Positions 25,316-41,725 of a stretch of DNA of 64,000 nt are shown here, in pieces (position 1 is the first letter of the stretch; each line of letters opens with the position of its first letter). The notes beneath the pieces were generated by a model that ran no database searches, was not told where the DNA came from, and saw nothing but the letters and a program-made list of their open reading frames with translations. The stretch is taken from NCBI RefSeq assembly GCF_017642335.1, contig NZ_JAGCPF010000038.1; one strand, written 5' to 3'. The position numbers were made by a program, and so were the translations under genes. The DNA is from Fibrobacter sp. (lineage in GTDB: Bacteria; Fibrobacterota; Fibrobacteria; Fibrobacterales; Fibrobacteraceae).

Positions 25316-25333
25316 AAACACCTCGCTGCTCAA

Positions 25334-25416: not shown

Positions 25417-25491
25417 TAAATTTGTGAAAAATCACCAATAGTGCGCAATATTTCTAAAAAAATGGGCGATTTTTCAAGGAATTTCACCTTT

Positions 25492-25587: not shown

Positions 25588-25641
25588 TTTCAGTTAGTAA
25601 GGATTCCTTACATACCTTTTTCCGCAATTTGCTCCATATGG

Positions 25642-25672
25642 AGTGGTAGTTTCCATTTTGGAAACTACCACT
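25642..25672. terminator. Hairpin, candidate intrinsic terminator
   Basis: agtggtagtttcc / ggaaactaccact 13-bp stem followed by a T run. Confidence 0.55.
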
Positions 25673-25781
25673 TTTTCAAAAATATCAGCAAGCGATATTG
25701 CCTAAGACTTGTGAGTTCTGGGGCGCTCAGCCACGACCAGAACGAGCCGGATTCCTAAAATAGGGATAAAGGGACATCCCA

Positions 25782-26438: not shown

Positions 26439-27646
26439 TTCTCACGGAAATTACTGTTCAACATAGGAATAGCGCCGTATCGTCCCAAAATATATCCCTT
26501 CTTGATGTTTTCATCCTTGCGAACATTCTTAAGTTCCGCAAGCGAATACAAATCCGTTGATCGCGTCTTTGGATTAAGTTCGGTAAACCAAATCTGATCA
26601 CGACGCACCTCGTTCAAGTCTAATAAATCGGAATCATGAGTTGCGGTAATAAGCTGGCTGCTAGAATCCCTATTTTGACAAAAACGTTTGATTATTTCAG
26701 CAACTATCGAGGGGTGCAAATGCGCTTCAATCTCATCACAAACAAGCACTCTATTATTTGTTAGTACATCCATCATTGGGCATATGAATTGGAATAATTT
26801 TTTGACACCCGAAGATTCCTCTCTATAATCCACCTCAAAATTTTTGTACACCAACTTCAACTCATACCCAATTGTATTCTGCATCATTTGCGGAGTCGTT
26901 GTTATTGAAACAGCATCATCAACTAAAATTTGCTGTCCATCTTTAATTTTTATATCAACTAAATCGCACCCTATACTTCTCATAAATCTGAGAAATTTTG
27001 CCTTCATCTGGGGACTATTCTTAAGCTGGTGCATGGAATAATTAAACAAGGATTCACTTTCTCTAAAAAACAAAAGATTTTCCAAAAAGAACATAAAAGC
27101 CGCAGAAACTTGAGGAATGTCGGTCTCGTTGGCAGCACATGAGAGGAGCAACTTATTTGGTTTTATACGCCCCTTACAATTATCACCCGCCTTCTTGAAG
27201 GAATCGGCAAATTGATAGTCCATAAATGACGTTCTCTCGAAAATCACGGCCCTCTTCACTCCTGGCCAATAATGAAGATATTCATCCACGATGCCATCTT
27301 CGTTATAACTAAACCCATAAGAATACTTCACACCATTCTTTTCAAAAATTACCGCAAATAAGGTCGGTTCCTTCTTCTTTGAAAGTTTATGCGGATACCT
27401 CAAAATCGGAAAGCCCGGTTGGACGGTATTACTAGTCAGCACAATTCTATACATAAGCAACAGGGCGTCCAGCAGAGACGTCTTACCAGATCCATTCGCT
27501 CCATACACTTCAGCCACTCGCAAATAACGTCCTTTACCAAAAGATATGAGAGAACCTTTGATGCTATCATCTTTAGATGCAGCCATGGAAAAAACGACTG
27601 GTTCCTTAATGGAACGATAATTTGAACAGGTAAACTGAATGAGCAT
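26435..27646 (-). CDS. AAA_21 (ABC-type) ATPase, abortive-infection type
   Basis: YGANGSGKT, ESSGVKK signature, CDEIEAHLHP, ATHD, GRYGAIP. Confidence 0.85.
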   Translation of the reverse strand: MLIQFTCSNYRSIKEPVVFSMAASKDDSIKGSLISFGKGRYLRVAEVYGANGSGKTSLLDALLLMYRIVLTSNTVQPGFPILRYPHKLSKKKEPTLFAVIFEKNGVKYSYGFSYNEDGIVDEYLHYWPGVKRAVIFERTSFMDYQFADSFKKAGDNCKGRIKPNKLLLSCAANETDIPQVSAAFMFFLENLLFFRESESLFNYSMHQLKNSPQMKAKFLRFMRSIGCDLVDIKIKDGQQILVDDAVSITTTPQMMQNTIGYELKLVYKNFEVDYREESSGVKKLFQFICPMMDVLTNNRVLVCDEIEAHLHPSIVAEIIKRFCQNRDSSSQLITATHDSDLLDLNEVRRDQIWFTELNPKTRSTDLYSLAELKNVRKDENIKKGYILGRYGAIPMLNSNFREK

Positions 27647-27791
27647 AATTCGCCTTCTGTGTTTTGTTTCCAAGGGAAAATATAGCCTATTTTTTGCAAA
27701 ATAGCAAATATTTTTATCATTTTTGCAGATTTTTCACAAAAACCAGCATTATTTTCCAAAGTTTTAAACTAATCAACAACATATAACGCCC

Positions 27792-27876
27792 ATTATAAGG
27801 GACCTGCCGGAGCAGCGAAAAATGCGCGTTTTTCGCGCAATTTTTTTGAATCGGCTTCTCGGCTGTCCCTTATAAT
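27792..27876. mobile_element. 85-bp MITE-like element with terminal inverted repeats
   Basis: attataagggac / gtcccttataat perfect 12-bp TIR extending imperfectly to ~23 bp; inner gcgaaaaa/tttttcgc palindrome; right 69 bp repeated at 30682-30750. Confidence 0.5.
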
Positions 27877-27906
27877 CTATATTGCTTACATACAATGACC
27901 GCCATT
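27877..27906 (+). pseudogene. wzt stub A: promoter box plus first ~4 codons (ATGACCGCCATT)
   Basis: Upstream 69 bp match stub B at 67/69; MTAI matches the wzt start; sequence then runs into REP-like DNA. Confidence 0.55.
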
Positions 27907-28063: not shown

Positions 28064-28759
28064 TCATTGATTACTAAACAATAAATGGATGTTACTATGG
28101 CGATGTAACGAATTGGTTGATTCCATGATAAAATTCCAGGAATCCTTATAATCCATCTTCACTGCAAATTCGGAACTGCTTATAAAAGCGAGAAAGTCAG
28201 AAAGACGCCCCGCATACATTTCATCGAACTTATTTGACAAATCCTTCTTTTCTGCATCAGACAAACTTTCGGCCTTGTTATGCAAGACGTGCTCCAAGTT
28301 TCGAGACAGGTAATAAATCTCGTACGGAATTCCGTTGTAAATTTGCGGAGTTGAGAATAATCTTTTCACCACGGCCGTCTTTCGAGCGTTTCGTTGCCTA
28401 ATTCCATCAGGATTTGATGTTATGATTTTTTCATCCATGTAACAGATCTGCTCGTCGCCACTCTTTTTTTCTATACAGCTTTCAGGAATAAATGCACCAT
28501 CTGTATCTATAAGGTGCACAATCTTCTGGATGTCGTTCTTCTTTAATTTTGTTGAGTTAAGAAACCTATCGATGGGTTGCTTGAGTTTTGACAAAATAGT
28601 TGATGGCGAGGAAAAATCCTGCGTGGTAATATCGCAACGAAGGACATAAACCCTCACCTCATTGTTTTCAAAAAACGATTCCCACAATCCTTCAAAAGAA
28701 ATTTCGTCAGAGATTCCTTCAACCAAAAACAGCAGAACCTTTTTCTTGACACTAGCCAT
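28064..28759 (-). CDS. TOPRIM-like protein partnered with an ABC ATPase
   Basis: LFLVEGISDE and LIDTDG (E...DxD) TOPRIM-type motifs; overlaps the ATPase stop. Confidence 0.6.
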   Translation of the reverse strand: MASVKKKVLLFLVEGISDEISFEGLWESFFENNEVRVYVLRCDITTQDFSSPSTILSKLKQPIDRFLNSTKLKKNDIQKIVHLIDTDGAFIPESCIEKKSGDEQICYMDEKIITSNPDGIRQRNARKTAVVKRLFSTPQIYNGIPYEIYYLSRNLEHVLHNKAESLSDAEKKDLSNKFDEMYAGRLSDFLAFISSSEFAVKMDYKDSWNFIMESTNSLHRHSNIHLLFSNQ

Positions 28760-30143
28760 TTTTCACCCCGGAATTTCTCAAGGCACGACGAATAAGGTGG
28801 AATTTTGTTTCCGTAGCCAGGATTTCATCCTGTCCGCCAATATTCAAGGCACGAATGTAGCAATCTCTGAGATTGTTCGTCGGCCGAATGTTCTTCAAAT
28901 GGATGTACCTATTGTCAGGATTGGTTGTCGTGAAGACAATGTCCTGCTTGTCCAAAATTTCTAGCGGGCGCAGGTTATGCGAAGTGAACACCAGCTGTCC
29001 CTTCCCGCTTTCCATTATAACCTTCAGCAAATCTCCAAGCAGAACTTCGAAAATGCCGGCATCAAGTTCGTCTATCGCAACGCAAACAGATTCATTGTTA
29101 TACATGGCAATAATAAGGTTCAAAATGGATAAGATCTTGCGAACGCCTTCGGATTCATATCTAATCGGGAGACGTTTGTCCTGACGAACAGAAACCAACT
29201 CATATCGGACGCCCATGGAACCATCGTTCAAAAGTTCTCGTCCGTAAACCATCGGCTCAATAGATAAGCCTGGAACCAAAGCGCCAAGGACATCAGCCAT
29301 CGACGCCAATACACTTTCGGTCAAATCAAAGATTTGCTCGTTTACCGTTATGGGCCCCTGCTGTCCAATAGGGATATCACCAATGGCGGTAGCATCCTTA
29401 TGTCGATATTTTACGGATAAAGGTATTACGGCATCCATGCTAATAAGACCAGAATGCGCTCCCGTTATCGTAAAAAGATTAAAGCTTGCGTAACTATTGA
29501 TCGCCTGCACAATCTCGATCATTTCCGCTTCTTCTGAATCTTTCAAGAGCGCAAAGAAATCTGGTGAAAAGAGAAAGGACGATTTTTTATCTTGGGAAAT
29601 CCTCATTGCAACAGACGCCTGAATCTTTTTCTCCTGCCCTTTTACAATGCTATCATAACGAGACTTCGGAGTAAAATTTGGCTTATCCTCGAAATCCAAT
29701 TCGTATGAGAATAAATTCGTCATTCGCCCGGGGAATTTTCCCGAATCTTCCGTCGCAACAGAAAGTTTCTCCGCAGCAAAGGCGCACCCCACCTTGTAAG
29801 TGACTTTCTTTGCTATGGTGCCTGAATAAAGAACATGATAGGATTTTCCATCCTCGAACTTTATTAAAAATTTTATAGATATGGTCACCTTGTTGCTATC
29901 AAGATTTATGCACTTTTCCATGTCGGTCCACAAGGGCTGCCCCATAGCAATTTGCTTGAATAGACCTAGCGCCTGGATTACGGTAGTCTTGCCGGATCCA
30001 TTTTGCCCATAGAGGCCAACAACTGACGACTGATCAAAAGCTGTTGCAGACAAAACATCTTGTTGAAAGTCGAAACATCCATGTTGGACATTCTTTAAAT
30101 GCTCTATAGAAAGGGACAGTATGCGAATTTTGCTATTTTTCAT
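28752..30143 (-). CDS. AAA_21 (ABC-type) ATPase
   Basis: YGQNGSGKT, ESEGVRK, IDELDAGI, FTSHN. Confidence 0.85.
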   Translation of the reverse strand: MKNSKIRILSLSIEHLKNVQHGCFDFQQDVLSATAFDQSSVVGLYGQNGSGKTTVIQALGLFKQIAMGQPLWTDMEKCINLDSNKVTISIKFLIKFEDGKSYHVLYSGTIAKKVTYKVGCAFAAEKLSVATEDSGKFPGRMTNLFSYELDFEDKPNFTPKSRYDSIVKGQEKKIQASVAMRISQDKKSSFLFSPDFFALLKDSEEAEMIEIVQAINSYASFNLFTITGAHSGLISMDAVIPLSVKYRHKDATAIGDIPIGQQGPITVNEQIFDLTESVLASMADVLGALVPGLSIEPMVYGRELLNDGSMGVRYELVSVRQDKRLPIRYESEGVRKILSILNLIIAMYNNESVCVAIDELDAGIFEVLLGDLLKVIMESGKGQLVFTSHNLRPLEILDKQDIVFTTTNPDNRYIHLKNIRPTNNLRDCYIRALNIGGQDEILATETKFHLIRRALRNSGVKNG

Positions 30144-30224
30144 AAAAAATTACCATTTGCGTGATAAATATACAAAATTGTCAATAGGAGTGTGAGATTT
30201 TGTAATAAAAAATACATTTTTTTA

Positions 30225-30563
30225 CTACTTGACCCAACGGTACTTTCTGGTAAATGCCTCCTTTTTCGTTTCATAATGGCGATACTGGTCATCTATTATG
30301 GCGGCTTTTAGTAGCCATCCAGCGCTTTTTGCTGTCATCTTGAACGCGTCACTCCGACCTCGATAGGACTCGAACAGGTCTTGCAACGGCGTTCCGTTCC
30401 AGTCAAAGTTTTCTCCGCCCATCAAATCCCGTAAAGAAAACCACTCGCCAGCTACGACTTTATCGTAACAACGGATGGCTCCTTGAAGAAAATCCTTGAT
30501 TTCTTCAGCTTTTTCCTTGGAAATGGAACGGACAGATCTGATTTTATTTTCTTGAGTAAGCAT
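30225..30563 (-). CDS. Hypothetical protein (112 aa)
   Basis: Clean ORF with AGGAG upstream; no family recognised. Confidence 0.6.
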   Translation of the reverse strand: MLTQENKIRSVRSISKEKAEEIKDFLQGAIRCYDKVVAGEWFSLRDLMGGENFDWNGTPLQDLFESYRGRSDAFKMTAKSAGWLLKAAIIDDQYRHYETKKEAFTRKYRWVK

Positions 30564-30757
30564 AATTGCTCCTTTTTTAATGTTTTATTGAGAAAAAGAG
30601 GTAGTTTCGGCAAAAAGTTTCTATTTACATAATAGTAGGGTTTTAACTGCCTTCTATGGCTGGCTGGGCTGCTAGAATATCAAAAATGCGCGTTTTTCGC
30701 ACATTTTTTTTGAATCGGCTTCTCGGCTGTCCCTTATAATCTATATTGCTCAATAGA

Positions 30758-31251
30758 ATGACAACCGCCATCGAGTTCGAGAACATCAGCAAGCAGTACC
30801 GTCTGGGGCTAGTGAGCACCGGGACGCTTAGCCACGACCTGAACAGGTTCTGGCAGACCAAGGTGCTGCGCCGTGAGGACCCCTACCTCAAGGTGGGCGA
30901 AGTCAACGACCGCGCGCACAAGGGCGACAGCGAATACGTGTGGGCCCTGAAAGACATCAATTTTAAAGTGGAACAGGGCGACGTCGTGGGAATCATCGGC
31001 AGGAACGGCGCCGGCAAGAGCACGCTCCTCAAGCTGCTGAGCCGCGTGACCGCCCCCACCACCGGCACCATCCGCGCACGGGGCCGCATCGCGAGCCTCC
31101 TCGAAGTGGGCACCGGATTCCACCCGGAGATGACCGGCCGCGAGAACATCTACATGAACGGCGCCATCATGGGCATGAGCCGCGCCGAGATTACCCGCAA
31201 GCTCGACGAGATCGTGGACTTCAGTGGCTGCGAACGCTACCTGGACACCCC
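30758..31251 (+). pseudogene. wzt stub B: 5' ~165 codons of the ABC ATPase, truncated at YLDTP just before the signature motif
   Basis: Near-identical to 40460-40950; ORF continues into unrelated AT-rich DNA and stops at 31276. Confidence 0.95.
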
Positions 31252-31308
31252 AAAGAAAAAATATTGTTATTATTAAACTATCTCACTAAAACGTTTTTTA
31301 GGTTAAAA

Positions 31309-32493
31309 ATGTTCTTAAAAGAAATCACACTAGAAAATTTTTTAAGCTATGGCAAGAAAACGACATTGCCGCTTAACAACCTAAACATACTGATCGGCAC
31401 GAACGCTTCAGGAAAAACAAACCTTATCGAAGCAATCGATTTTCTTCATCACGCACCAACAGACCTTCTGAAACCAATCAGTGGTGGTGGTGGCATATTT
31501 GACTGGCTATGGAAAGGCGATTTGAAAAATCCCAATGTTGAAGCTTCTGTAGAGGCTATTTTTTCAAAATCAGACAAAAAAAACATAAGACATGCAATCA
31601 AATTCAGTGCAGTTGCACAGCGTTTTCAAATAATAGATGAACGTATTGAAGAAGCTGAGCCGCAAGAAGGTCATCAAGAGCCTTACTTCTACTATCACTT
31701 CAACAATGGAAGGCCATACCTAAATGTTCTTACCGATGAAGAATCAGGCAAAGTCAAACGCAGATCCTTACAATCCGAAGACATCCTACTAGACAAGTCT
31801 ATTCTTTCCCAAAGAAAGGACTCTGACGTTTATCCCGAAATAACATGGTTAGGAAAACAATTAGATAATATCGGCATTTATCGAGATTGGAGTTTTGGAC
31901 GTTACACTCCTGCTCGACTTCCGCAAAAAACAGATTTGCCAAACAAATATCTTGAAAACGATTGTTCAAACTTAAGTTTAGTACTAAACCATTTAGAATT
32001 ATTCAATAAATCAAAAAAAATCATTCAAGAAGCTCTTTCTAAAATTGTTCCTGGAATTGAAGACTTTCACATCAATATTGAATCTGGCTCAGCACAATTA
32101 TTCGTAATCGAGAATGGAATGCGCATACCCGCAACTCGGTTGTCGGAAGGCCTTATGCGCTATATATGTCTACTTGCCATATTGTGCAATCCAGAACCGC
32201 AACAGCTTATTTGCATCGAAGAACCTGAATTAGGGATGCACCCAGACATGCTCACTGTTCTTGCGGATTTGATTCGCGCAGCTTCACAAGAAACACAAAT
32301 TATTATAACAACACATTCATCCATGCTGGTTGATTATTTCACAGACTCTCCAGAAGCCATTATTGTTGCGGAAAAAGAAGAAAACGGGACTTCGTTGAAG
32401 CATCTTGAGATTGATAAACTTAAACCTTGGCTCGAGAAATACCGCCTAGGTCAACTGTGGCTACAAGGCGACATTGGAGGCACAAGATGGTAA
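31309..32493 (+). CDS. AAA_21 (ABC-type) ATPase
   Basis: GTNASGKT, LSEGLMR, IEEPELGMHP, TTHS; start at MFLKE. Confidence 0.85.
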   Translation: MFLKEITLENFLSYGKKTTLPLNNLNILIGTNASGKTNLIEAIDFLHHAPTDLLKPISGGGGIFDWLWKGDLKNPNVEASVEAIFSKSDKKNIRHAIKFSAVAQRFQIIDERIEEAEPQEGHQEPYFYYHFNNGRPYLNVLTDEESGKVKRRSLQSEDILLDKSILSQRKDSDVYPEITWLGKQLDNIGIYRDWSFGRYTPARLPQKTDLPNKYLENDCSNLSLVLNHLELFNKSKKIIQEALSKIVPGIEDFHINIESGSAQLFVIENGMRIPATRLSEGLMRYICLLAILCNPEPQQLICIEEPELGMHPDMLTVLADLIRAASQETQIIITTHSSMLVDYFTDSPEAIIVAEKEENGTSLKHLEIDKLKPWLEKYRLGQLWLQGDIGGTRW

Positions 32494-33113
32494 AAACAGA
32501 TAGAAAACTCTTTGTTGAAGGCGGAGGAGATTCCGAATCGCTTCATACCGAATGTCGCAAAGGATTTCGTACCTTTTTAGAAAGAGCTGGATTAAAAGGT
32601 AAAATGCCACGAATCGTCTCTTGTGGAGGAAGGCGACAAGCAGTTGATAAGTTTTTGCACTCTATCAATATGGGTGAAGACGCCTTTTTGCTAATCGATA
32701 GCGAAGGAAAAGTCTCGGAAGAGTTAATATCGACAGAATTTTTGAGTCAAGAATTTAAGGAATTTGAAGGGAAACAAGGTTTAAGTGACAAATGCCATTT
32801 AATGGTAGAATGCATGGAAGCTTGGTTTCTTGCGGACACAGAGGCTCTGGGAAAATACTTTAATCCAGGTTTTGACCAAAATAAGTTGCCCAAACACCAA
32901 TCAATAGAGTCTATTTCAAAAGAAAACCTATACAAAAGTCTAAAGGAATGCACTAAATTAACCAAGACAAAAGGTGAATACAGCAAAGGTCAACATTCTT
33001 TCAAAATATTGGCCTTGATTAACCCGCAATTAGTGTCCGAAGCCTCACCATGGGCGAAAAAATTCATTGACAGTTTGAAAGGTGGCGTGGCAATCCAGAC
33101 GCAAGGGCGTTGA
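32487..33113 (+). CDS. DUF4276-like (TOPRIM-related) protein
   Basis: LFVEGGGD, LIDSEG, ECMEAWFLAD, YSKGQHS; overlaps the ATPase. Confidence 0.75.
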   Translation: MVKTDRKLFVEGGGDSESLHTECRKGFRTFLERAGLKGKMPRIVSCGGRRQAVDKFLHSINMGEDAFLLIDSEGKVSEELISTEFLSQEFKEFEGKQGLSDKCHLMVECMEAWFLADTEALGKYFNPGFDQNKLPKHQSIESISKENLYKSLKECTKLTKTKGEYSKGQHSFKILALINPQLVSEASPWAKKFIDSLKGGVAIQTQGR

Positions 33114-33147
33114 TTGAAAAAGTTATGATCGCAATCAAGTTCGAGAA

Positions 33148-34164
33148 ATGGTTCAAGAAAAAGACAAAAATCCCATCGTTTTCTTTTCATGGCAATCAGA
33201 CTTAGATGCAAAAACCAATCGCAACATCATTGGTGATTGTATAAAAGATATTTGCAAAAAGAATAACCTTTTATATGACGAGGCTACGAAAGACCGGTGC
33301 GGCAGTCCCGACATCGCGAGATCTATAGAAGAGAAAATTCGATTGGCAGACATATTTGTTGCAGATGTAACTGTGATAAATGCCGAAAGTCAATCGAAAC
33401 CAACCCCAAATCCCAATGTTCTTTTTGAACTGGGAATTGCCCAAGCAATACTCGGCTGGGAAAGAATAATCCTTATTGTTAACACTGCCTATGTTGCAAT
33501 TGAATCTCTGCCATTTGACATAGACAAACACAGAGCTATTCCTTATTCGCTTGCCCCACAATGCGCTCAAAAATTAAGCAACAAACAAAGAATGAATCTT
33601 TTATACGATACCCTTAAAAAGGGAATTCTTTCAATAATAAAAGCAAACCCTCTAAAGGAAATTTTAAAAAGAAATCGCACAAAACAAATACAATACAACA
33701 AAGACTATGAAAAACTTGAGAATCTTTTAGACTATTTTTTCTTTGATTCTATACAGGAATTTTGCGAGAACGGCCCCAAAGATGTCGATAAATACATGCT
33801 TCTTTTTCAAAAGCATCTCGCCATAGAAGTAAAGAATCCATCATTCATTTTTTATGACAAAGAACTCGAAGCATTAATAAAGGACATTCATAGTACACTA
33901 AACAAGAGCATCCCTTCAAGCGCTCCATATCGTCCCAATTCTGACCGAACAAGCTTGACATGGGAAATCCCTTTTGACGTTCCCCCGTCAAAAGACGAAG
34001 AAAAATTATTTCATTCAGCAGTATCCGCTTGCAGAAAATTAGAAAAATTAATAAGACGCCTCGCTCACATAGTTCATGAAAGATATCCAGGAATTGATCT
34101 TGATGTTAAAAGTGGAATGAACAGCACAGATTTTTTTAAAGAAGTTTTTTCGCAGTCCGGATGA
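33148..34164 (+). CDS. TIR-like / nucleoside-deoxyribosyltransferase-like nucleotide-binding protein
   Basis: VFFSWQSD, ADIFVADVT, NPNVLFELGIA, LPFDI. Confidence 0.65.
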   Translation: MVQEKDKNPIVFFSWQSDLDAKTNRNIIGDCIKDICKKNNLLYDEATKDRCGSPDIARSIEEKIRLADIFVADVTVINAESQSKPTPNPNVLFELGIAQAILGWERIILIVNTAYVAIESLPFDIDKHRAIPYSLAPQCAQKLSNKQRMNLLYDTLKKGILSIIKANPLKEILKRNRTKQIQYNKDYEKLENLLDYFFFDSIQEFCENGPKDVDKYMLLFQKHLAIEVKNPSFIFYDKELEALIKDIHSTLNKSIPSSAPYRPNSDRTSLTWEIPFDVPPSKDEEKLFHSAVSACRKLEKLIRRLAHIVHERYPGIDLDVKSGMNSTDFFKEVFSQSG

Positions 34165-34304
34165 TTCACAACATTATTCCTAAGGATTGCTGGGGGTTCA
34201 GTTCTGATGAAATTTTACAATCTCTATTAGAGAAAAATCCCGATTATCGGAAACTAAACGACGAAGATACTCTGTTTGAATTGATTGACGAAAAGAGTGT
34301 TTAA
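34161..34304 (+). CDS. Small 47-aa ORF (MIHNIIPKDCWGFSS...), below the ORF-track cutoff
   Basis: ATGA overlap with the upstream stop; followed by a terminator. Confidence 0.4.
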   Translation: MIHNIIPKDCWGFSSDEILQSLLEKNPDYRKLNDEDTLFELIDEKSV

Positions 34305-34316
34305 CTCAAATAAGGA

Positions 34317-34341
34317 AATCGGCAGGCTTGGCCTGCCGATT
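34317..34341. terminator. Intrinsic terminator between convergent genes
   Basis: aatcggcagg / cctgccgatt stem, T run downstream. Confidence 0.7.
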
Positions 34342-34356
34342 AGTTTTTGTAGTTTC

Positions 34357-34614
34357 TTACTCCTTATTAATTTTTTCACATTCTCTACACTCGTCTGGCA
34401 AGGAGTCAAATACCTCATGTACCAAGGAGTGAAGTTTTTCGCGATCTAGTTCAACATCCGCATTCGCGACCACCTTCGCTTCTATTTTTTCAATTCCAGA
34501 AGGAATGTCTTCTAGCATCGCATAGTACGAATCGGGGTGAAAAATACACGGTTTGACCGCATTGCCGTCTTGTAGCACACGAATGGCTACTTTATATAAT
34601 TCAAAGGAATTCAT
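34357..34614 (-). CDS. Hypothetical protein (85 aa)
   Basis: ORF ending at the terminator. Confidence 0.5.
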   Translation of the reverse strand: MNSFELYKVAIRVLQDGNAVKPCIFHPDSYYAMLEDIPSGIEKIEAKVVANADVELDREKLHSLVHEVFDSLPDECRECEKINKE

Positions 34615-35045
34615 AATGAAACTCCTGTATTTAAATTTAACTTACCATCACCACGCGGCAATGGATAAAAAAACGAGGCAAACATTTACAAGCCTCATTT
34701 CTTCTGATCCTTCAATCGATAAGGAACGTTTAATTATTACATCGGAACGTCGATTCGTTCCAGTCATTATAGTTGGTTCAATTTGGGCCTTTTTTCTACC
34801 GATGCCTTAAGGCGTTTGCCGACAGAGCCCGAAAACCAATTTTACTACAAATATACAAAAAAAAGTCAAATGCCAATACAATCTTTTAAGAACCCAATTA
34901 TTCTTTCCGTCTTTAATCTATATTACAGCAATATGCAGAACGGCAAGATAAAGAAAGTTATCCTATTGCTTCTTCAACTGGTTATGGGGAAGCTTACATG
35001 TCCAATTTACACAAGAGACCGTTTTCTGGATGGATTTCCCAATTT

Positions 35046-35936
35046 CTATTTCACCATTGCAAGTACCTGTTCCTTGGTGACGAAGTTCAGTACAGAAAAT
35101 GCAGTCATCTGGTTTCCGAGATCTTTGAGCGATGCGCCCACATGATAAATCACGTCGTCGACGATGACAAAACGGTCATGGACCTCACGCATGTTTTCTA
35201 GGCGGACTGTCGGAAATTCCCGGTTCAAGCGCGCTTCTTCCTCCCTCATTGTGCGAGTGATTCTGGCGGAATAGATTGTTGCGTCCACACCCTGGGCGCG
35301 TTTTGCCATGAGCGAAAGGACCATGTCGTTGGCATACGGATCGATGATGAAGAGTTCCTTTTTTGCCGAACGCACCAGCTGCACGGCGAATTCGTAGCCG
35401 CTCCAGTGCGCATGGGCGGGCAAGAGGCCCTCGCTTGGTGGCAGGTTCGCCTTCACGAAGAAATCCACCTGCCTTTCTAGGTTGATTATGCGGGAATCAA
35501 GGTATTCCAGCCTGTTTTCGTGGGAAACCAGGCGCTGGTTGACGCTGCAACCCCGGAGCAGATGCTCTTTCAGGACTTGGTTCGCCCAGCGGCGAAATTG
35601 TATTCCCCGACAAGTGTTGACGCGAAACCCTACAGAGATAATCATGTCGAGATTATATAGAGTAACCATTCTTTTTACAGATCTTTGGCCCTCCTTTTGA
35701 ACTAGTTCCAAAATGGAACTAGTTGCCTTTTCTTCTAATTCCTGGGTTTCAATGATACTCCTTATATGTTTGGTTATCGCCTGTCGTTGAACATCGAACA
35801 GCTCCGCCATCTGTGCCTGGGTGAGCCAGACGGTCTCGTTCTCTACCCGGACCTCGATGTGGAATTCCCCGCCCTCCGGCTGGTACACGATGATCTCGTT
35901 CTTGTCGGCGACCGGCAACGTCTCTTTTTCGCTCAT
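35046..35936 (-). CDS. RhuM-like DNA-binding protein with a C-terminal PLD-like domain
   Basis: ETVWLTQAQMAELF, YNLDMIISVGFRV, FRRWA; IIDPY and HDRFVIVD. Confidence 0.8.
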   Translation of the reverse strand: MSEKETLPVADKNEIIVYQPEGGEFHIEVRVENETVWLTQAQMAELFDVQRQAITKHIRSIIETQELEEKATSSILELVQKEGQRSVKRMVTLYNLDMIISVGFRVNTCRGIQFRRWANQVLKEHLLRGCSVNQRLVSHENRLEYLDSRIINLERQVDFFVKANLPPSEGLLPAHAHWSGYEFAVQLVRSAKKELFIIDPYANDMVLSLMAKRAQGVDATIYSARITRTMREEEARLNREFPTVRLENMREVHDRFVIVDDVIYHVGASLKDLGNQMTAFSVLNFVTKEQVLAMVK

Positions 35937-36199
35937 TTACGGCTCCTTTGACGCCTTGGGCGTCCGTGACGACGGCTCAGAAATACAAACCATGTAAACA
36001 TGGTTGTGCTTCATTCGCCTTGCACGATTTTCCTGCAAATGGGCTTCTGGTTGCGGGTCTTAATCGGTTCTTGCAAATATGTAATGCACATCCGTGCATT
36101 ATCAAATATAATTCCGCGGGGTGGCGATGTCAATAGGTAGGCGGATTTTTTCTCAATTGTTTTCCAGGTTTTCCCCTAATATCTATATTACTTGATAGT

Positions 36200-36395
36200 A
36201 TGTCGTCTGCTATTGAGTTCGAGAACATCAGCAAGCAGTACCGCCTGGGGCTAGTGAGCACCGGGACGCTCAGCCACGACCTGAACAGGTTCTGGCAGAC
36301 CAAGGTGCTGCGCCGCGAGGACCCCTACCTCAAGGTGGGCGAAGTGATGCCGTTGAGATTATCGATCGCGAACGCTACCTAGACACCCCAGTGAA
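36200..36395 (+). pseudogene. wzt stub C: codons 1-49 fused to a remnant of the EIVD..CERYLDTPVK segment
   Basis: 36200-36345 matches the wzt 5' end; 36354-36395 (gagattatcgatc gcgaacgctacctagacaccccagtgaa) matches about 40906-40956. Confidence 0.9.
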
Positions 36396-36407
36396 GAAGA
36401 TTTCACT

Positions 36408-37538
36408 ATGCTAAAGAAAATCATTCCGACACTAGCATCTAGAGAATCAAAGGAGCTTCTTTGCATTGATGCTCTTAAGGGCATAGGTGCGTTCATCATT
36501 GCATTCTTTTGGCATTATCAGCATTTTACGCCTATCCAAGAGTTTCCACTTTCCAGCATTTTTGAAATTAGCTGCACCCATGGCTATTTAATGGTAGAAT
36601 TATTCTTTATGCTTTCTGGTTTCGGGATGGCTTTGGGGTATCAGAAAAAAATTCAAGATAAAGAAATTAAGTTTTTTCCTTATATAAAAAAGAGATTTTG
36701 TAGGTTGTACCCGCCTTTTCTGGTAGCTTTGTTTGCCACGGGATTTCTAGAGTGCGTCCATATAACGCAAACGGGAACAACCTTCATTTATGGTAACTTC
36801 GACTTATATCATTTCTTATTAAATCTACTATTGCTTCAAAACGGATTGATTGCAACGGAGTGGTCGTTTAACTCACCATCATGGTGCATCTGCATATGTA
36901 TGTTATGCTATATTCTTTTTTACATAGTGGTATATAAGGGCGCTAGCGAACGTTCTCTGTTCTATAAATGTATTATCGTTTTGTTCTTTGCCGAATATCT
37001 CTTTTTCGGAATGGCAAAGCCCATCTTTAACGCTCAAATCGCTCGCGGGATTTCATGCTTTTCCATCGGAGTTATGCTTTCGTATGCATGGCGATACAAG
37101 GACCGCTTCAACTATCAATATCTTGGAAAAATTTTGCTATTGCTTCTCATTGGAGGGTATATTGCTATTCGGTATAACCCCTACATTACAGGGAATATGC
37201 AGCAACTATTCATATTAGGAATTGGCCCTGTAATTATCCTAACATCATTGTTTCATAAACACTTAAACATCATTTTCCAAAACAAAATTTTTGTTTTTTT
37301 AGGCTCAATATCCTTGAATATTTATTTGTGGCATTACCCTGTTCAATGTGCCATAAAAGACTTAGACCTGCTTTTCTCGCTAAGTCTTGATTTTTCATCT
37401 ATTTTGACTTGGTCGATATATGTAATGGCGACTCTTGCGGTTGCAGTTTTTGATAGGTATTTCGCTTCAAAGTGCTACAACAAGGTTTTTTCAACTTTTA
37501 TTGCGCAATTTAAGGCCAATAGCGCTCCAAACCACTAA
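36408..37538 (+). CDS. Acyltransferase family 3
   Basis: IDALKG...WHY, VELFFMLSGFG, KRFCRLYP, PSWCI, IYLWHYP. Confidence 0.85.
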   Translation: MLKKIIPTLASRESKELLCIDALKGIGAFIIAFFWHYQHFTPIQEFPLSSIFEISCTHGYLMVELFFMLSGFGMALGYQKKIQDKEIKFFPYIKKRFCRLYPPFLVALFATGFLECVHITQTGTTFIYGNFDLYHFLLNLLLLQNGLIATEWSFNSPSWCICICMLCYILFYIVVYKGASERSLFYKCIIVLFFAEYLFFGMAKPIFNAQIARGISCFSIGVMLSYAWRYKDRFNYQYLGKILLLLLIGGYIAIRYNPYITGNMQQLFILGIGPVIILTSLFHKHLNIIFQNKIFVFLGSISLNIYLWHYPVQCAIKDLDLLFSLSLDFSSILTWSIYVMATLAVAVFDRYFASKCYNKVFSTFIAQFKANSAPNH

Positions 37539-37559
37539 ATCTTTTTTACATTACTTTTC

Positions 37560-37806
37560 ATGACCGCGATCGAGTTTGAAAACATCAGCAAGCAGTACCG
37601 CCTGGGGCTAGTGAGCACCGGGACGCTCAGCCACGACCTGAACAGGTTCTGGCAGACCAAGGTACTGCGCCGCGAGGACACCTACCTCAAGGTGGGCGAG
37701 GTGAACGACCGCGCGCACAAGGGCGACAGCGAATACGTGTGGGCCCTGAAGGACATCAACTTCATGGTGGAACAGGGCGACGTCGTGGGCTTCATCGGCA
37801 GAACAT
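37560..37806 (+). pseudogene. wzt stub D: 5' ~82 codons, truncated within Walker A
   Basis: Matches 40460-40705 with a few missense changes; ORF reads on to TGA 37847, overlapping the next ATG. Confidence 0.95.
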
Positions 37807-37843
37807 GTTCTACCAACTTTATCATCATTAAGATGGTTCACCA

Positions 37844-39124
37844 ATGAATAACAAAAACGTCATTCACATTCAGGATTTATCCAACCCCAAAGCCATAAGT
37901 GATTTTGTAAGTGAATATCTAGATTTAAAAAAAAGGCGAGTAAAAGAATATATAGTAGATTTTCAAAAATGCGACGCGATTTACCCTAATTCAATCGTTC
38001 CTATAATGGCATATATAGAGGCTTTAAAGGCTGATGGAGAAAACTTTACTATTTGGCCTCCTCAAGACCCCAAAACAGCCGGCATGATAAGCGTTCGCGA
38101 CATCGAGAATCTTGATTTTGTTGATTCTCCCCTATCAAAAATTTGGAAATTTGATTCAAATCATATTCATATTTTTGTAAACAAACTGATGGATTGTATC
38201 AGCAGATCCACTGTTTGTTCCGAGGGGGTATTAGGAACTATTGAATGGTCAATAAATGAAGTAATGGACAATGTACCCGAGCATGCTGACGTTGAATATG
38301 GTTACGTCATGGTTCAATTGCATAAATCGAACAATAGAGTTGCACTAGCTATCGCCGATACAGGTATAGGCTTTAAAGAGTCGTTTAAAAAATCAAAACA
38401 ATATCGGCCGATAACCGATGTTGATGCAATTACATTAGCGCTTAAAAAAGGGGTGACCTCTTCTGACGAACGAGGCCGCGGAAACGGATTATATGGTTTG
38501 TACAACCTGGTTACATCCACCGAAAATGGGCGTTTGCGCATTTGCTCAGCATCAGGTATGGTAAATATTGAGAAAAATAAAAATCAGAAACCCCTAAACT
38601 CATTACACCCCTTAAAAACGCATGGCGATCATACAATAACAACAATTGATTTTCAACTACCTCTAGATGAAAGAATAAATATAACAGAAGCATTAGAAGG
38701 TTACACGCCACCCCTTGTCACAGCAAGAATTGAACAATACGAAAAAGACAATGACTATGTTTTCTCTTTAAAAGACATGTCTAATGGCTTTGCAACAAGA
38801 TCTGAGGGCAAACGAGTTAGAACAAAAATAGAGAATATGTCTATCGAATTAAACAGAGAAAAAATTATTTTAGATTTTTCCGATATATCTATGATTTCAT
38901 CTTCTTTTGCTGATGAAGTAATTGGAAAATTAATGGAAAAGTATGGTTATGAAAATTTCAACAAATTTTTCCTCATTTCAAATGTTGAAAGAAATGTAGA
39001 ATCTCTTCTCAATTATGCGATTACAAACAGAACAATAAACGAGGACACATATAATACAAAGGATAAAGGTGTAAAGGCCTTTATTAGGAAAATTCTAGTA
39101 CACCTGCTAGAGAAGTTGAATTAG
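37844..39124 (+). CDS. STAS-like + GHKL/HATPase + DUF4325-like protein
   Basis: INEVMDNVPEH, IADTGIG, GRGNGL GHKL boxes; LDFSDISMISSSFADEVIGKL C-terminal STAS-like domain. Confidence 0.7.
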   Translation: MNNKNVIHIQDLSNPKAISDFVSEYLDLKKRRVKEYIVDFQKCDAIYPNSIVPIMAYIEALKADGENFTIWPPQDPKTAGMISVRDIENLDFVDSPLSKIWKFDSNHIHIFVNKLMDCISRSTVCSEGVLGTIEWSINEVMDNVPEHADVEYGYVMVQLHKSNNRVALAIADTGIGFKESFKKSKQYRPITDVDAITLALKKGVTSSDERGRGNGLYGLYNLVTSTENGRLRICSASGMVNIEKNKNQKPLNSLHPLKTHGDHTITTIDFQLPLDERINITEALEGYTPPLVTARIEQYEKDNDYVFSLKDMSNGFATRSEGKRVRTKIENMSIELNREKIILDFSDISMISSSFADEVIGKLMEKYGYENFNKFFLISNVERNVESLLNYAITNRTINEDTYNTKDKGVKAFIRKILVHLLEKLN

Positions 39125-39317
39125 AGCAAACCATATTCACCACTAATACCAAGATCGATTTTCTTTTTTGGAAATTCATAAAATACTACGGCACAAACTG
39201 TGCACCATTTGCGGTATGTCATTCGCCTCCAAAACCATTCACGAAAGCAGGTCCAAATATGTATTATTCATTTTTCCCAACACTACATAAAAATCTTTAT
39301 TCTATATTAGTTTTAAC

Positions 39318-40430
39318 ATGATTTGCTCAGACCTAAAAAAAGGCTTACACAGTTGGCTAGACAAACTTAACCAACCGTTTCTCTTAAACCAAGGAGAAAC
39401 AGAAATCCTGACTTTGCGACAAGATGGCGACAGAGACGAGGTATTCGATGTTCTAAAGGGTATCGCCATATTCCTCGTGATTATTGGGCATTGCACATCA
39501 GGACCATTGAAAGTATTTGCTCATACATTTCACATACCCTTATTCTTTTTTATTGCCGGATATTTTCTTAAAATTCGCCCTATCCGGCAAGAAATTCAAC
39601 TTAGCACAAAAAGACTCATCATTCCATATTTTTTTGTAGCTTTTTTCTCTTCTCTCATAGCGATTCTCCAAGATCTTTCACACTACACCTGGGCGGACGG
39701 AACTTATTCTCAAGAAATAATCATTAGACTGTTACTTGGCTTTAGAACGGACTTCGCGCCCAGTTGGATGAATGGAAACATCGGCATTCTTTGGTTCATT
39801 CTCGCCATGTTTTGGGCTCGGTGTATCGCAGTATTTTTAATTGGAAAAATTCACTCAATAAAGAAACTTTGCGTTATTTTTTTCATTCTAGCAATTCTAG
39901 GGATTGTTTTAGGAAAATTCGTTTTTGTTCCTTACTGCATTCCACATGGTCTCACCGCTTCGGCCCTAGTTTATGTTGGTTTTCTCATAAGAAAATTTAG
40001 GATACTAAACTCAGAATATATTAACAAAATCCTTCCTTTTCTGCTTATACTTTGGCTATGCAGTTTGAACCATGGCGGCTTGGGAATGGCTAGCGGGAAT
40101 TATCCTTTGGGCTTTATTTTTAGTTCATTAGGAGCTCTAGGAGCCTTTTTAACATTGTATATTGTCGTAAAAACAATCTACAGAAAAGATTCCACATTTT
40201 GGAGATTTATCTATTTCGGAGGACGTTTTAGTCTAATTATCTACTGTGTCCACGCTATCGAATTTGACAATTTCAACTGGAAAGCCTTCGCTCTGTTGCA
40301 TCATGTCCCCTTAAATCATTTTGACCTGTTCCAATTGGCAGCACATTTTACCATTACCCTTGTATTCACATCTATTATTTTAAAGATTAAGCCAATTAAA
40401 GAACATATTTTCCAAATAAGAAATGTTTAA
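39318..40430 (+). CDS. Acyltransferase family 3 (paralog of 48578-49576)
   Basis: FDVLKGIAIFLVIIGHC, PLFFFIAG, GILWFI. Confidence 0.85.
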   Translation: MICSDLKKGLHSWLDKLNQPFLLNQGETEILTLRQDGDRDEVFDVLKGIAIFLVIIGHCTSGPLKVFAHTFHIPLFFFIAGYFLKIRPIRQEIQLSTKRLIIPYFFVAFFSSLIAILQDLSHYTWADGTYSQEIIIRLLLGFRTDFAPSWMNGNIGILWFILAMFWARCIAVFLIGKIHSIKKLCVIFFILAILGIVLGKFVFVPYCIPHGLTASALVYVGFLIRKFRILNSEYINKILPFLLILWLCSLNHGGLGMASGNYPLGFIFSSLGALGAFLTLYIVVKTIYRKDSTFWRFIYFGGRFSLIIYCVHAIEFDNFNWKAFALLHHVPLNHFDLFQLAAHFTITLVFTSIILKIKPIKEHIFQIRNV

Positions 40431-40459
40431 AAATCTGCAAAAAATTATTTTTTTACAAA

Positions 40460-41725
40460 ATGATAGCCATCGAGTTCGAGAACATCAGCAAGCAGTACCG
40501 ACTGGGGCTAGTGAGCACCGGGACGCTCAGCCACGACCTGAACAGGTTCTGGCAGACTAAGGTGCTGCGCCGCGAGGACCCCTACCTCAAGGTGGGCGAA
40601 GTCAACGACCGCGCGCACAAGGGCGCAAGCGAGTACGTGTGGGCCCTCAAGGACATCAACTTCAAGGTGGAACAGGGCGACGTCGTGGGAATCATCGGGC
40701 GTAACGGCGCCGGCAAGAGCACCCTCCTCAAGCTGCTGAGCCGCGTGACCGCTCCCACCACCGGCACCATCCGCGCACGGGGCCGCATCGCGAGCCTCCT
40801 CGAAGTGGGCACCGGGTTCCACCCGGAGATGACCGGGCGCGAGAACATCTACATGAACGGCGCCATCATGGGCATGAGCCGCGCGGAGATTACCCGCAAG
40901 CTCGATGAAATCGTGGACTTCAGCGGCTGCGAACGCTACCTGGACACCCCCGTGAAACGCTACAGCAGCGGCATGACCGTACGCCTCGGATTCGCCATCG
41001 CAGCACACTTGGAACCCGAAATCCTCGTGGTGGACGAAGTGCTGGCCGTGGGCGACGCCGAATTCCAAAAGAAGGCCATCGGCAAGATGCAGGACGTAAG
41101 CCGCGGCGAAGGCAGAACCGTGCTGTTCGTGAGCCATAATATGGGCGCGGTGAAGAATTTGTGTAAGCGCGGAATTGTGCTGAATCAGGGACAAGTGACG
41201 TTTGATGGAGCGGCAGACAATGCCGTAAATTTTTATACAGGAAGTTATCGCTTATCAGAAGAAGACGAACTAATCAATCGGGTAACAAAAACGGCAAAAG
41301 GCATTTCAATAAAGCATTTCTCTTTTAACGGCTCAACATCTAGTCAAACAACTATCACAAATGGACAAAAATCCATTGAGGTCTGCATTGAGGGTTATAC
41401 TAGCAGCCCTCTTTCTAAAGTTGACATCAGATTGACTATAAAAAATTCTTTGGGAACACCACTAGCAACTCTTGCAGAAGGACACTATAAAAATAGCACT
41501 CAGGATTTTGATATCGGAGATTTCTCGATAAAGAAAGAATTCATTTTGCCCAAATATCTTTCACAAGGGCTTTGCATTGTCGACATCTATTTGCACAAGC
41601 CAAACGTCATGTACTATATGGAAGCCCCCAATTGTGCAACAATAGACATTAACGGAAATAGCGAACGATTCGGACAGGCCCTTTTATTAAACAGGGATGG
41701 CTTTTTCGGATTTGAAACGAAATAA
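40460..41725 (+). CDS. wzt: Polysaccharide ABC transporter ATP-binding protein with Wzt_C domain (intact copy)
   Basis: GRNGAGKST, YSSGM, VVDEVLAVGD, VSHN, plus a C-terminal extension. Confidence 0.95.
   Translation: MIAIEFENISKQYRLGLVSTGTLSHDLNRFWQTKVLRREDPYLKVGEVNDRAHKGASEYVWALKDINFKVEQGDVVGIIGRNGAGKSTLLKLLSRVTAPTTGTIRARGRIASLLEVGTGFHPEMTGRENIYMNGAIMGMSRAEITRKLDEIVDFSGCERYLDTPVKRYSSGMTVRLGFAIAAHLEPEILVVDEVLAVGDAEFQKKAIGKMQDVSRGEGRTVLFVSHNMGAVKNLCKRGIVLNQGQVTFDGAADNAVNFYTGSYRLSEEDELINRVTKTAKGISIKHFSFNGSTSSQTTITNGQKSIEVCIEGYTSSPLSKVDIRLTIKNSLGTPLATLAEGHYKNSTQDFDIGDFSIKKEFILPKYLSQGLCIVDIYLHKPNVMYYMEAPNCATIDINGNSERFGQALLLNRDGFFGFETK

What the first reader, a model, noticed from the sequence alone, without database searches (positions are those of the whole stretch)
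31229..36395. Two wzt stubs end at the same site (CERYLDTP), just before the ABC signature motif
Seen: B diverges after gcgaacgctacctggacacccc (31251). C has lost codons ~50-150 but keeps gcgaacgctacctagacaccccagtgaa (36368-36395) and then switches to cargo. Both read cccc-A where intact wzt reads cccc-C (40951). Inference: either a preferred, possibly site-specific, crossover at about 40930-40955 of wzt, or B and C descend from one insertion event whose cargo was later exchanged. Both truncations remove the signature motif, so the stubs are catalytically dead.
Basis: partly seen in the sequence, partly recalled or inferred. Interest (0 to 1): 0.7.

Follow-up and report, generated by a model that had tools for sequence, protein, structure and literature searches.

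The report
wzt stub array, not att site
In this rumen Fibrobacter genome, the gap between the glycan-export genes wzm and wzt holds 22 kb of anti-phage and sugar-modifying gene cassettes, each preceded by a dead front piece of wzt. The cassettes seem to be swapped between strains by ordinary homologous recombination, so the two front pieces that end almost together do not mark a dedicated integration site.

Summary

**What is there**
- Stub B matches wzt up to 31251/31252 (wzt nt 491/492).
- Stub C keeps wzt nt 7-143, then 22 unrelated bases, then nt 470-498 (36368-36396).
- The two ends are therefore 6 nt apart, not identical.
- The shared "A" is a synonymous CCA allele that also occurs in another species' intact wzt.

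**Context**
- B and C are two of five wzt 5' stubs in a 22-kb, low-GC island between wzm (16969-17814) and intact wzt (40460-41725).
- The island carries HEC-01, AbiL-like, PDC-S01, HipA and RhuM genes plus acyltransferases.
- No recombinase lies on the contig.

**Evidence for homologous recombination**
- Near-identical cassettes occur in other strains in permuted order or behind other wzt alleles.
- The crossovers fall inside the wzt 5' repeats.

**Breakpoint surveys**
- In 101 Fibrobacter genomes and about 110 other loci, 33 other junction classes spread over nt 32-453. None lies at 491-498.
- A protein-database survey does show a diffuse excess of breaks at Wzt residues 162-170 (P about 0.003).
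- That excess includes an independent junction at nt 492 with different cargo.
- A loose hot zone is therefore possible. A site-specific core is not.

The parts
16969..17814 (+). wzm, the ABC-2 permease; left border of the island
   Evidence: PF01061 ABC2_membrane, E = 7.6e-22. In relatives wzm lies 1.3-7 kb upstream of wzt.
17818..25674 (-). Leftmost cargo: HTH/M78 peptidase, HipA, a 506-aa caspase-like ORF, and two PDC-S01 (AAA_14 + DUF4143) ATPases
   Evidence: Pfam and PADLOC hits. Low GC from about 22 kb onward.
25675..25743 (+). Stub A: wzt nt 16-84, 75% identical (oldest or most diverged)
   Evidence: blastn; the repeat finder family D3.
25782..27673 (-). Cassette: HEPN_RiboL-PSP gene plus an AbiLi-like AAA_21 ATPase
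   Evidence: In loci L099 and L160 the same pair sits directly upstream of an intact wzt.
27818..27905 (+). Stub 0: wzt upstream region plus the first ~14 nt of wzt
   Evidence: 91% identical to 30682-30771. The same ATGACCGCCA-plus-insert structure occurs in G012.
28064..30563 (-). Cassette: 231-aa ORF, AAA_15/AbiLi-like ATPase, and a 112-aa ORF
   Evidence: Homologous blocks lie next to wzt in L093, L126, L159, L082 and L113.
30682..31252 (+). Stub B: upstream region plus wzt nt 1-491/492. Its ORF (30758-31276) ends ...CERYLDTPKKKYCYY*
   Evidence: The same junction occurs behind other wzt alleles in P0005, P0006, P0008 and L168.
31253..36144 (+). Cassette 3: HEC-01A ATPase (31309-32493), HEC-01B/DUF4276 (32487-33113), TIR-like gene (33148-34164), small ORFs, and RhuM (35046-35936, minus strand)
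   Evidence: PADLOC HEC-01A E = 1e-161 and HEC-01B E = 1e-67; Pfam. In G010, RhuM plus the C-type upstream region joins directly to an intact wzt.
36145..36345 (+). Stub C, part 1: its own upstream region plus wzt nt 1-143
36346..36367 (+). 22-nt filler of unknown origin
   Evidence: No match in the genome or in any held locus. This junction occurs only in G000-type contigs.
36368..36396 (+). Stub C, tail: wzt nt 470-498. It overlaps B's last 23 nt (one mismatch).
36397..37559 (+). Cassette 4: acyltransferase-3 gene (36408-37538)
   Evidence: PF01757. It follows a different neighbour in L073 and sits in permuted order in L166.
37560..37798 (+). Stub D: wzt nt 1-239 (to about nt 248 if a 1-nt deletion is allowed). 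Its ORF stop overlaps the next gene's ATG.
37799..40459 (+). Cassette 5: HATPase + DUF4325 (DrmA-like) gene (37844-39124) and a second acyltransferase (39318-40430)
   Evidence: 99.9% identical in L166.
40460..41725 (+). Intact wzt (421 aa). The B and C break positions correspond to 40950-40957.
   Evidence: PF00005 plus a weak Wzt_C hit.

Best explanation
The wzm-wzt gap in Fibrobacter is a recombinase-free hotspot where cassettes pile up.

**Proposed mechanism**
- Each cassette is a block of defence or glycan-modifying genes.
- On its left it carries a displaced 5' piece of wzt (a stub). On its right lies the next wzt 5' copy.
- Because every cassette lies between two direct copies of the wzt 5' region, ordinary RecA-type homologous recombination can insert, remove or reorder it. 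This can happen in any genome that has wzt. Each insertion leaves one intact wzt at the right end and pushes earlier stubs leftward.
- The stub/cargo joint itself was made once per cassette, by an illegitimate (non-homologous) join.

**How B and C fit**
- B (joint at wzt nt 491/492, HEC-01 cargo) and C (joint at nt 498, acyltransferase cargo, plus an internal deletion of nt 144-469) are two such separate joints.
- They lie 6 nt apart either by chance or because a roughly 50-nt stretch just before the ABC signature motif is a loosely favoured place for such joints.
- There is no att core and no dedicated recombinase.

**Shown versus inferred**
- Shown: the anatomy, the cassette shuffling, and the crossovers inside the wzt repeats.
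- Inferred: the route of DNA entry, the illegitimate origin of each joint, and the cause of the hot zone.
For: - **Anatomy.** Five stubs lie upstream of intact wzt between wzm and wzt. GC is low and the content is defence genes.
- **Each cargo-plus-next-wzt-start is a natural unit.** The unit sits against an intact wzt or a wzt start in other genomes: L099 and L160 for the HEPN/AAA_21 pair, G010 for RhuM, L073 and L056 for the acyltransferases.
- **Permuted order with crossovers inside wzt.** L166 carries cassettes 5 and 4 at 99.7-99.9% identity but in swapped order. The stub in front of cassette 4 there has the SNPs of G000's intact copy at nt 9, 12, 42 and 99.
- **Same joint, different stub allele.** L168 has the B joint and HEC-01 cargo at about 99.5% identity, while the stub body is 93-97% identical and comes from another allele. 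P0005, P0006 and P0008 show the same.
- **Breakpoints are spread.** Elsewhere they run from nt 32 to 453 in 33 classes, none at 491-498.
- **No recombinase** in the island or on the contig.
- **Internal deletions in stubs recur.** Examples are C, the N-type stub in L168 (nt 78-417), and G010 (nt 253-396, via an AACGGCGCC repeat), so C's structure is ordinary.
- **Hot zone.** 13 of 50 break classes fall at residues 162-170 (P about 0.003). Separate DNA-verified joints lie at nt 492 (L172, different taxon and cargo), 504, 508, 510 and 510.
Against: - No experiment or read-level data supports the model.
- How the first stub/cargo joint forms is not shown. A simple linear double crossover does not by itself duplicate the wzt 5' end.
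- Natural competence of Fibrobacter is not established. ComEC is present, but that is weak evidence.
- The hot-zone statistic rests on ORF ends in metagenome gene calls. These include frameshifts and small deletions and come from several taxa.
- The smaller nucleotide-level survey showed no joint at nt 454-640 outside G000.
- Nucleotide conservation is flat over nt 1-690, so no homology edge explains a hot zone.
- B's end and C's tail overlap by 23 nt and share the rare CCA allele. The single-stub rival explains this more directly.
Confidence: 0.6

Rival explanations
1. B and the tail of C are two halves of one ancestral stub.
- An earlier locus had upstream-B, then wzt nt 1-498, joined to the acyltransferase cassette.
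- A 5.1-kb foreign block (31253-36367) later inserted near the stub's 3' end. The block carried HEC-01, the TIR-like gene, RhuM, its own wzt upstream region, wzt nt 1-143 and 22 nt of the donor's next cargo.
- The insertion duplicated 23 bp (wzt nt 470-492).
- On this reading there was only ever one breakpoint (nt 498).
For: - B's last 23 nt and C's tail start are the same wzt segment, with one mismatch.
- Both carry the rare CCA allele. Only 1 of about 17 other alleles reads CCA.
- The model explains why C keeps an odd 28-nt wzt remnant.
- The filler would then be the start of a donor cargo that followed a stub ending at nt 143. Stubs ending near nt 141-147 are common.
Against: - The insertion would have to land within the last ~28 nt of the stub, which is as unlikely as the coincidence it replaces.
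- No unsplit form (...DTPVKKISLC) appears among the top hits of two protein searches.
- No donor carries the filler in a longer context.
- Cassette 4, with its deleted stub, exists without cassette 3 in L166.
- A 23-bp flanking duplication has no established mechanism here.
- Internal deletions of stubs are common without any such insertion.
Confidence: 0.2
2. A site-specific recombinase, acting in trans or since lost, recognises an att core at about GACACCCC(A) in wzt and inserts different elements there.
For: - B and C end within 6 nt of each other, and both read CCCCA.
- An independent junction at exactly nt 492, with other cargo, occurs in another taxon (L172/L173).
- Break classes are in excess at residues 162-170.
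Against: - There is no integrase, resolvase or transposase in the island or on the contig.
- Joints in the zone fall at nt 492, 498, 504, 508 and 510, not at one base.
- The cargo sides share no motif.
- The right ends of the cassettes carry no att copy. They are the wzt start itself.
- The other stubs in this genome end at nt 14, 84, 143 and 239.
- 33 further junction classes elsewhere run from nt 32 to 453.
- CCA is a synonymous allele, not a crossover scar.
- A pattern scan for B/C-type joints found nothing in the metagenome or GTDB contig collections.
Confidence: 0.05
3. The repeated stubs are an assembly artefact: a chimeric MAG contig that collapses several strains' wzm-wzt regions.
For: - The genome is a 73-contig MAG.
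- wzt 5' repeats are the kind of sequence at which assemblers mis-join.
Against: - An independently assembled 207-kb scaffold has the same 21 kb at 99.97% identity.
- A Logan contig present in 6 samples spans the C junction and cassette 4.
- Similar arrays occur in many other genomes and contigs, including a 245-kb contig.
Confidence: 0.03

Closest known systems
Minimal mobile elements (MMEs) of Neisseria (Saunders and Snyder 2002, cited in PMC1538595; see also PMC3082526)
   Same: Different gene cassettes occupy the same chromosomal site between two conserved genes in different strains. There are no mobility genes, and exchange is by homologous recombination in the conserved flanks.
   Different: Here the right flank (the wzt 5' end) is duplicated with every acquisition. 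Cassettes therefore accumulate as an array with stubs instead of replacing one another. Competence of the host is not established.
Orphan rhs-CT/rhsI and cdiA-CT/cdiI arrays (PMC3967940)
   Same: The arrays consist of displaced gene fragments that keep part of the conserved gene sequence next to variable cargo. Recombination between the main gene and the fragments rearranges the locus.
   Different: In Rhs and CDI loci it is the 3' tips that are displaced downstream, and the cargo is a toxin tip plus an immunity gene fused in frame. Here 5' ends are displaced upstream, the cargo is unrelated genes, and the stubs encode no useful part of the cargo.
Homology-facilitated illegitimate recombination (definition in the abstract of PMC3240628)
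   Same: One end of the acquired DNA is joined through homology (wzt). The other end is joined at a non-homologous point, with little or no microhomology. For example, the L171 joint has a 2-nt microhomology.
   Different: Classical events do not duplicate the anchor. An extra step is needed to leave both a stub and a full copy, such as a circular intermediate, sister-chromosome exchange, or insertion followed by repair.
Integrons
   Same: An ordered array of mostly co-oriented cassettes sits behind a fixed chromosomal position, and the cassette order can be permuted.
   Different: There is no IntI integrase, no attI and no attC. The repeat between cassettes is a 14-490-nt piece of a housekeeping gene, and the exchange appears to be homologous.
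Defence islands at core-genome hotspots
   Same: The region clusters HEC-01, AbiL-like, PDC-S01, TIR-like, HipA and RhuM genes between conserved genes and varies between close relatives.
   Different: The site lies inside a glycan-export operon. Defence genes are mixed with acyltransferases, and the borders are marked by target-gene stubs rather than by integrase or tRNA features.

Membership tests
Integrase-mediated genomic island with an att site | A tyrosine or serine recombinase gene in or beside the island | tested here: not met
   No recombinase family was found in any island ORF. PF00589 hits lie only on contigs C27, C47, C3 and C8. PF00239 gave no hit.
Integrase-mediated genomic island with an att site | The same att core at the joints of independent insertions | tested here: not met
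   Joints fall at wzt nt 14, 84, 143, 239-248, 491/492 and 498 in this genome, and at nt 32-453 elsewhere. Within the hot zone they fall at nt 492, 498, 504, 508 and 510.
Integron | IntI integrase, attI, and attC sites between cassettes | tested here: not met
   There is no integrase. The repeats between cassettes are wzt 5' fragments. Rfam found nothing in 17-42 kb.
Minimal mobile element-type site | Conserved flanking genes with different cassette content in different strains | tested here: met
   wzm and wzt are conserved. The gap ranges from 1.3 to more than 22 kb with different genes in G001, G007, G010, G011, G012, G013, L166, L168 and L169.
Minimal mobile element-type site | Exchange by homologous recombination in the flanks | tested here: met
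   Crossover points lie inside the wzt 5' copies: L166 versus G000 (SNPs at nt 9, 12, 42, 99) and L168 versus G000.
Minimal mobile element-type site | A naturally transformable host | not testable with these tools
   ComEC is present and the window carries pilin genes. Neither shows competence.
Wzt / ABC transporter ATPase (the stubs as fragments of it) | Walker A, signature motif, Walker B and H-loop all present | tested here: not met
   The intact copy has all of them (PF00005). B ends before YSSGM, C lacks Walker A and everything after nt 498, and D ends at about Walker A.
Defence island | Several known or candidate defence systems clustered together | tested here: met
   PADLOC hits: HEC-01A/B (E = 1e-161 and 1e-67), AbiLi-like ATPases, PDC-S01 twice, a TIR effector and a DrmA-like gene. 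Pfam hits: HEPN_RiboL-PSP, HipA and RhuM.

The most novel reading that the evidence does not exclude
The roughly 50 nt of wzt just upstream of the ABC signature motif (nt ~460-510) may be a real, cross-taxon hot zone where unrelated cargo becomes joined to the gene. Cargos seen there include HEC-01, DarT-Macro, acyltransferases and fatty-acid-type genes. If so, some process not yet recognised would be responsible. It could be a nuclease or homing-like cut made by, or for, the cargo. It could also be strong selection on how much of a truncated nucleotide-binding domain a cell tolerates or needs as a recombination arm. Either way, the wzt 5' stub would act as a portable, integrase-free 'attachment arm' for defence cassettes.
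Probability: 0.2. Interest if true: 0.65.

Novelty: new variant of a known kind. Interest (0 to 1): 0.45.

Why it matters
- **For defence islands.** The locus shows how a defence island can grow and be reshuffled without any integrase or transposase. Each acquisition duplicates the front of a conserved gene, and that duplicate then serves as the homology arm for the next exchange.
- **For rumen biology.** In Fibrobacter, a major fibre degrader, the site lies inside the operon that exports a surface glycan. Anti-phage genes and glycan-modifying acyltransferases therefore travel together next to genes for a surface glycan that could be a phage receptor (my inference, not tested here).
- **For annotation.** Short 'ABC transporter ATP-binding protein' ORFs upstream of wzt are landmarks of such arrays, not genes.
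- **For the finding as posed.** A shared stub end is weak evidence for an att site unless many independent cargos share the exact base.

Tried and rejected
1. **Filler as a diverged wzt homologue.** In one frame C's 22-nt filler reads DAVEIIDRERYLDTPVKK. No source sequence exists in the genome or in any held locus, so I dropped the idea.
2. **Diverged wzt continuing beyond the joints** (KKKY against VKRY in B; the tail after D). Identities are not above chance once the composition is shuffled.
3. **Homology between the cargo sides of B and C.** Identity in register is 19/40 (shuffle P = 0.014; empirical P = 0.004). Gapped local alignment is at background (P = 0.42). The result is inconclusive and I treat it as no support.
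4. **Pattern scans for B/C-type joints.** Nothing was found in the metagenome or GTDB contig collections.
5. **Junction DNA searches in 101 genus genomes.** Only the wzt part matched.
6. **A homology-block edge as the cause of a hot zone.** Nucleotide conservation is flat (0.80-0.91) from nt 1 to 690, so I rejected this.
7. **A common origin for the B and N-type joints** (both carry AAA_21 + DUF4276 cargo). Their post-junction DNA is unrelated.
8. **Rfam.** No hit for the island or for the small hairpin inserts.
10. **Artefact tails.** Tails reading EIGRAHV or RSEEHTSELQS are Illumina adapter read-through. I removed them from the counts.

Full report
**1. The observation**

The sequence facts hold.
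- Stub B (ORF 30758-31276) aligns with intact wzt (40460-41725) at 95.3% over 485 nt and stops matching after GACACCCC at 31251.
- Stub C aligns at 97% over wzt nt 7-143 (36209-36345). It then has 22 unrelated bases, then 28-29 nt equal to wzt nt 470-498 (36368-36396). The acyltransferase gene follows at 36408.
- Both stubs read A where the intact gene reads C (40951), and both lack the signature motif.

Four corrections matter.
- The ends are 6 nt apart: nt 491/492 for B and nt 498 for C.
- C lost codons 49-156, and filler replaces them.
- CCA is a synonymous allele found in another species' intact wzt. In C, the A is simply wzt sequence.
- B and C are two of five stubs. The others are at 25675-25743, 27818-27905 and 37560-37798.

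The array is not an assembly artefact. An independently assembled 207-kb scaffold carries the same 21 kb at 99.97% identity, and a Logan contig seen in 6 samples spans the C junction.

**2. What the region is**

- wzm is at 16969-17814 (PF01061).
- Everything from 17818 to 40459 lies between wzm and wzt. From about 22 kb onward this stretch is low in GC.
- Its genes, by Pfam and PADLOC:
  - an HTH/M78 peptidase and HipA;
  - two PDC-S01 ATPases;
  - a HEPN_RiboL-PSP gene with an AbiLi-like ATPase;
  - a second AbiLi-like ATPase with a 231-aa partner;
  - HEC-01A/B (E = 1e-161 and 1e-67) with a TIR-like gene;
  - RhuM;
  - a DrmA-like HATPase-DUF4325 protein;
  - two acyltransferases.
- None of these is a recombinase. 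The genome's four tyrosine recombinases lie on other contigs, and it has no serine recombinase.
- The genus is Fibrobacter, mostly rumen MAGs.

**3. Relatives**

- In other Fibrobacter species the wzm-wzt gap measures 1.3-7 kb and holds different genes.
  - G012 has only one PDC-S01 ATPase there.
  - G010 has RhuM plus the "C-type" upstream region running straight into an intact wzt.
  - G007, G010, G042, G052, G089 and others carry stubs of their own.
- Each cargo block of this window, together with the wzt start to its right, can be found elsewhere sitting against an intact wzt or a wzt start. The array therefore looks like a stack of such units, each of which displaced the previous wzt 5' end to the left.

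**4. Evidence that homologous recombination moves the cassettes**

- Contig L166 holds cassettes 5 and 4 at 99.7-99.9% identity to this window, but in the opposite order.
  - The stub in front of cassette 4 there carries the SNPs of this genome's intact copy at wzt nt 9, 12, 42 and 99.
  - The crossover therefore lay inside the 137-nt wzt repeat.
- Contig L168 has the B junction and its HEC-01 cargo at about 99.5% identity, but a stub body from another allele (93-97%, with a 54-nt insert).
- Database proteins P0005, P0006 and P0008 show the same B-type ending on other alleles.
- L169 shows the simplest state: wzm, a few genes, one stub, one ATPase-DUF4276 pair, then intact wzt.

**5. The att-site test**

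I built one from 101 genus genomes, 81 metagenome loci and 33 GTDB loci.
  - It holds 33 junction classes besides this genome's own, spread from nt 32 to 453.
  - None lies at nt 491-498.
- The apparent peaks at nt 92 and 203 come from small hairpin inserts, not from cargo joints.
- The cargo sides of B and C share no motif.
- Pattern scans for B/C-type joints found nothing elsewhere.
- Together with the missing recombinase, this rejects a site-specific core.

**6. A diffuse hot zone**

- I searched a 5.8-billion-protein collection with Wzt residues 1-130. This query scores all longer stubs alike, wherever they break.
- It gave 51 distinct break classes at residues 131-210.
  - 14 lie at residues 162-170. 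Leaving out B, that is 13 (binomial P about 0.003).
  - 23 lie at residues 154-170 (P about 0.0003).
- DNA look-ups confirm separate stub/cargo joints:

| wzt nt | Locus | Cargo or structure |
|---|---|---|
| 492 | L172/L173 (more AT-rich allele) | Fatty-acid-type genes |
| 504 | L171 | Joined to wzt nt 78 plus a hairpin insert |
| 508 | L169 | A different AAA_21 + DUF4276 pair |
| 510 | L170 | DarT-Macro |
| 510 | L174 | Internal deletion |

- Caveats:
  - the classes include frameshifts and small deletions;
  - they come from several taxa;
  - the nucleotide survey saw nothing in this zone outside G000.
- Conservation is flat along nt 1-690, so no homology edge explains the excess. I regard a loose hot zone as possible and unexplained.

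**7. B and C specifically**

- *Reading I prefer (about 0.6).* B and C are separate illegitimate joints, and C later lost nt 144-469. Internal deletions of stubs are common: the N-type stub in L168 lacks nt 78-417, and G010 lacks nt 253-396 through a 9-nt repeat.
- *Second reading (about 0.2).* B's last 23 nt and C's tail are the same wzt segment, with one mismatch and the same rare CCA. B plus the C tail could therefore be one old stub (nt 1-498 joined to the acyltransferase) that was split by a 5.1-kb insertion with a 23-bp duplication.
  - No unsplit form and no donor for the filler were found.
  - The insertion would itself need to land in the last 28 nt of the stub.

**8. Comparison with known systems**

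- The site behaves like a Neisseria minimal mobile element: conserved flanks, no mobility genes, and homologous exchange (PMC1538595, PMC3082526).
- It differs in that the flank is duplicated at each step, so cassettes accumulate.
- The displaced fragments recall orphan rhs-CT and cdiA-CT arrays (PMC3967940), mirrored to the 5' end.
- The first joint of each cassette fits illegitimate joining next to a homologous anchor (PMC3240628). An extra step is needed to keep both the stub and a full copy, and that step is not shown.
- It is not an integron and not an integrase island, because the defining features were tested and not met.

**9. Verdict**

- The finding is real as an observation.
- Its att-site reading is not supported.
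- The underlying structure is a recombinase-free, stub-delimited cassette array in a glycan-export operon. This is a new variant of known hotspot and MME-type systems.
- An open question remains about why joints crowd just before the signature motif.

Noticed in passing
L136:5230-5305 (e76); L142:7420-7484 (e64); many other loci: A family of small hairpin elements sits inside wzt stubs and copies in many Fibrobacter genomes. There are 76-nt and 65-nt forms with a shared core (CGCTCGG..stem-ACAAGTT-stem..CTCGC..TCGGG). They lie at wzt nt 92, at nt 203 and just before nt 16. A few diverged copies occur elsewhere in those genomes, none in this genome, and there is no Rfam match. They may be MITE- or REP-like.
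   Followed up: partly
L168:3443-4015 and proteins P0008, P0013, P0020, P0032, P0064, P0249: An in-frame 54-nt insert that reads RTALGNFVALVRMVLEGD sits at about wzt nt 307 in many stub ORFs of other strains.
   Followed up: no
window 27869-28025 and L033:14967-15120: In both this genome and G012, ATGACCGCCA (wzt nt 1-10) is followed by a ~140-nt insert. The insert contains a GTCATTGCGAGGCCGAAGGCCGTGGCAATC hairpin. In G012 a full wzt restarts at its ATG after the insert.
   Followed up: partly
window 23999-24107 and 25421-25529: A second nested-repeat series (91% identical) lies upstream of the two minus-strand PDC-S01 ATPase genes. It suggests that the same landmark-plus-cargo stacking also works from the left side of the island.
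   Followed up: no
window 41150-41725 and downstream to ~50 kb: Intact wzt switches from GC-rich to AT-rich near nt 690-740, where conservation between species also collapses. The AT-rich part continues into the glycosyltransferase block, as expected if the glycan cluster is swapped with a crossover at the end of the nucleotide-binding domain.
   Followed up: partly
window 37844-37847: The stop codon of stub D's ORF overlaps the start codon of the DrmA-like HATPase-DUF4325 gene (ATGA). This fits translational coupling of the cargo to the stub.
   Followed up: no
L170:2032-3064: In another metagenome contig, a wzt stub ending after YSS is followed directly by a DarT-Macro (DarTG-type) pair. A protein with a faint Y1 transposase hit lies just upstream of the stub.
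   Followed up: no
L174:5001-10582: A contig from a more distant taxon (about 80% Wzt identity) also has an array: stub, RhuM, PDDEXK_3, a second stub, a Fic-like gene, then intact wzt. The phenomenon is therefore not confined to this genus-level lineage.
   Followed up: no
proteins P0037, P0046, P0060, P0250, P0296: Some metagenome ORFs end in EIGRAHV or RSEEHTSELQS. This is Illumina adapter sequence translated at contig ends, and it can be mistaken for gene junctions.
   Followed up: yes
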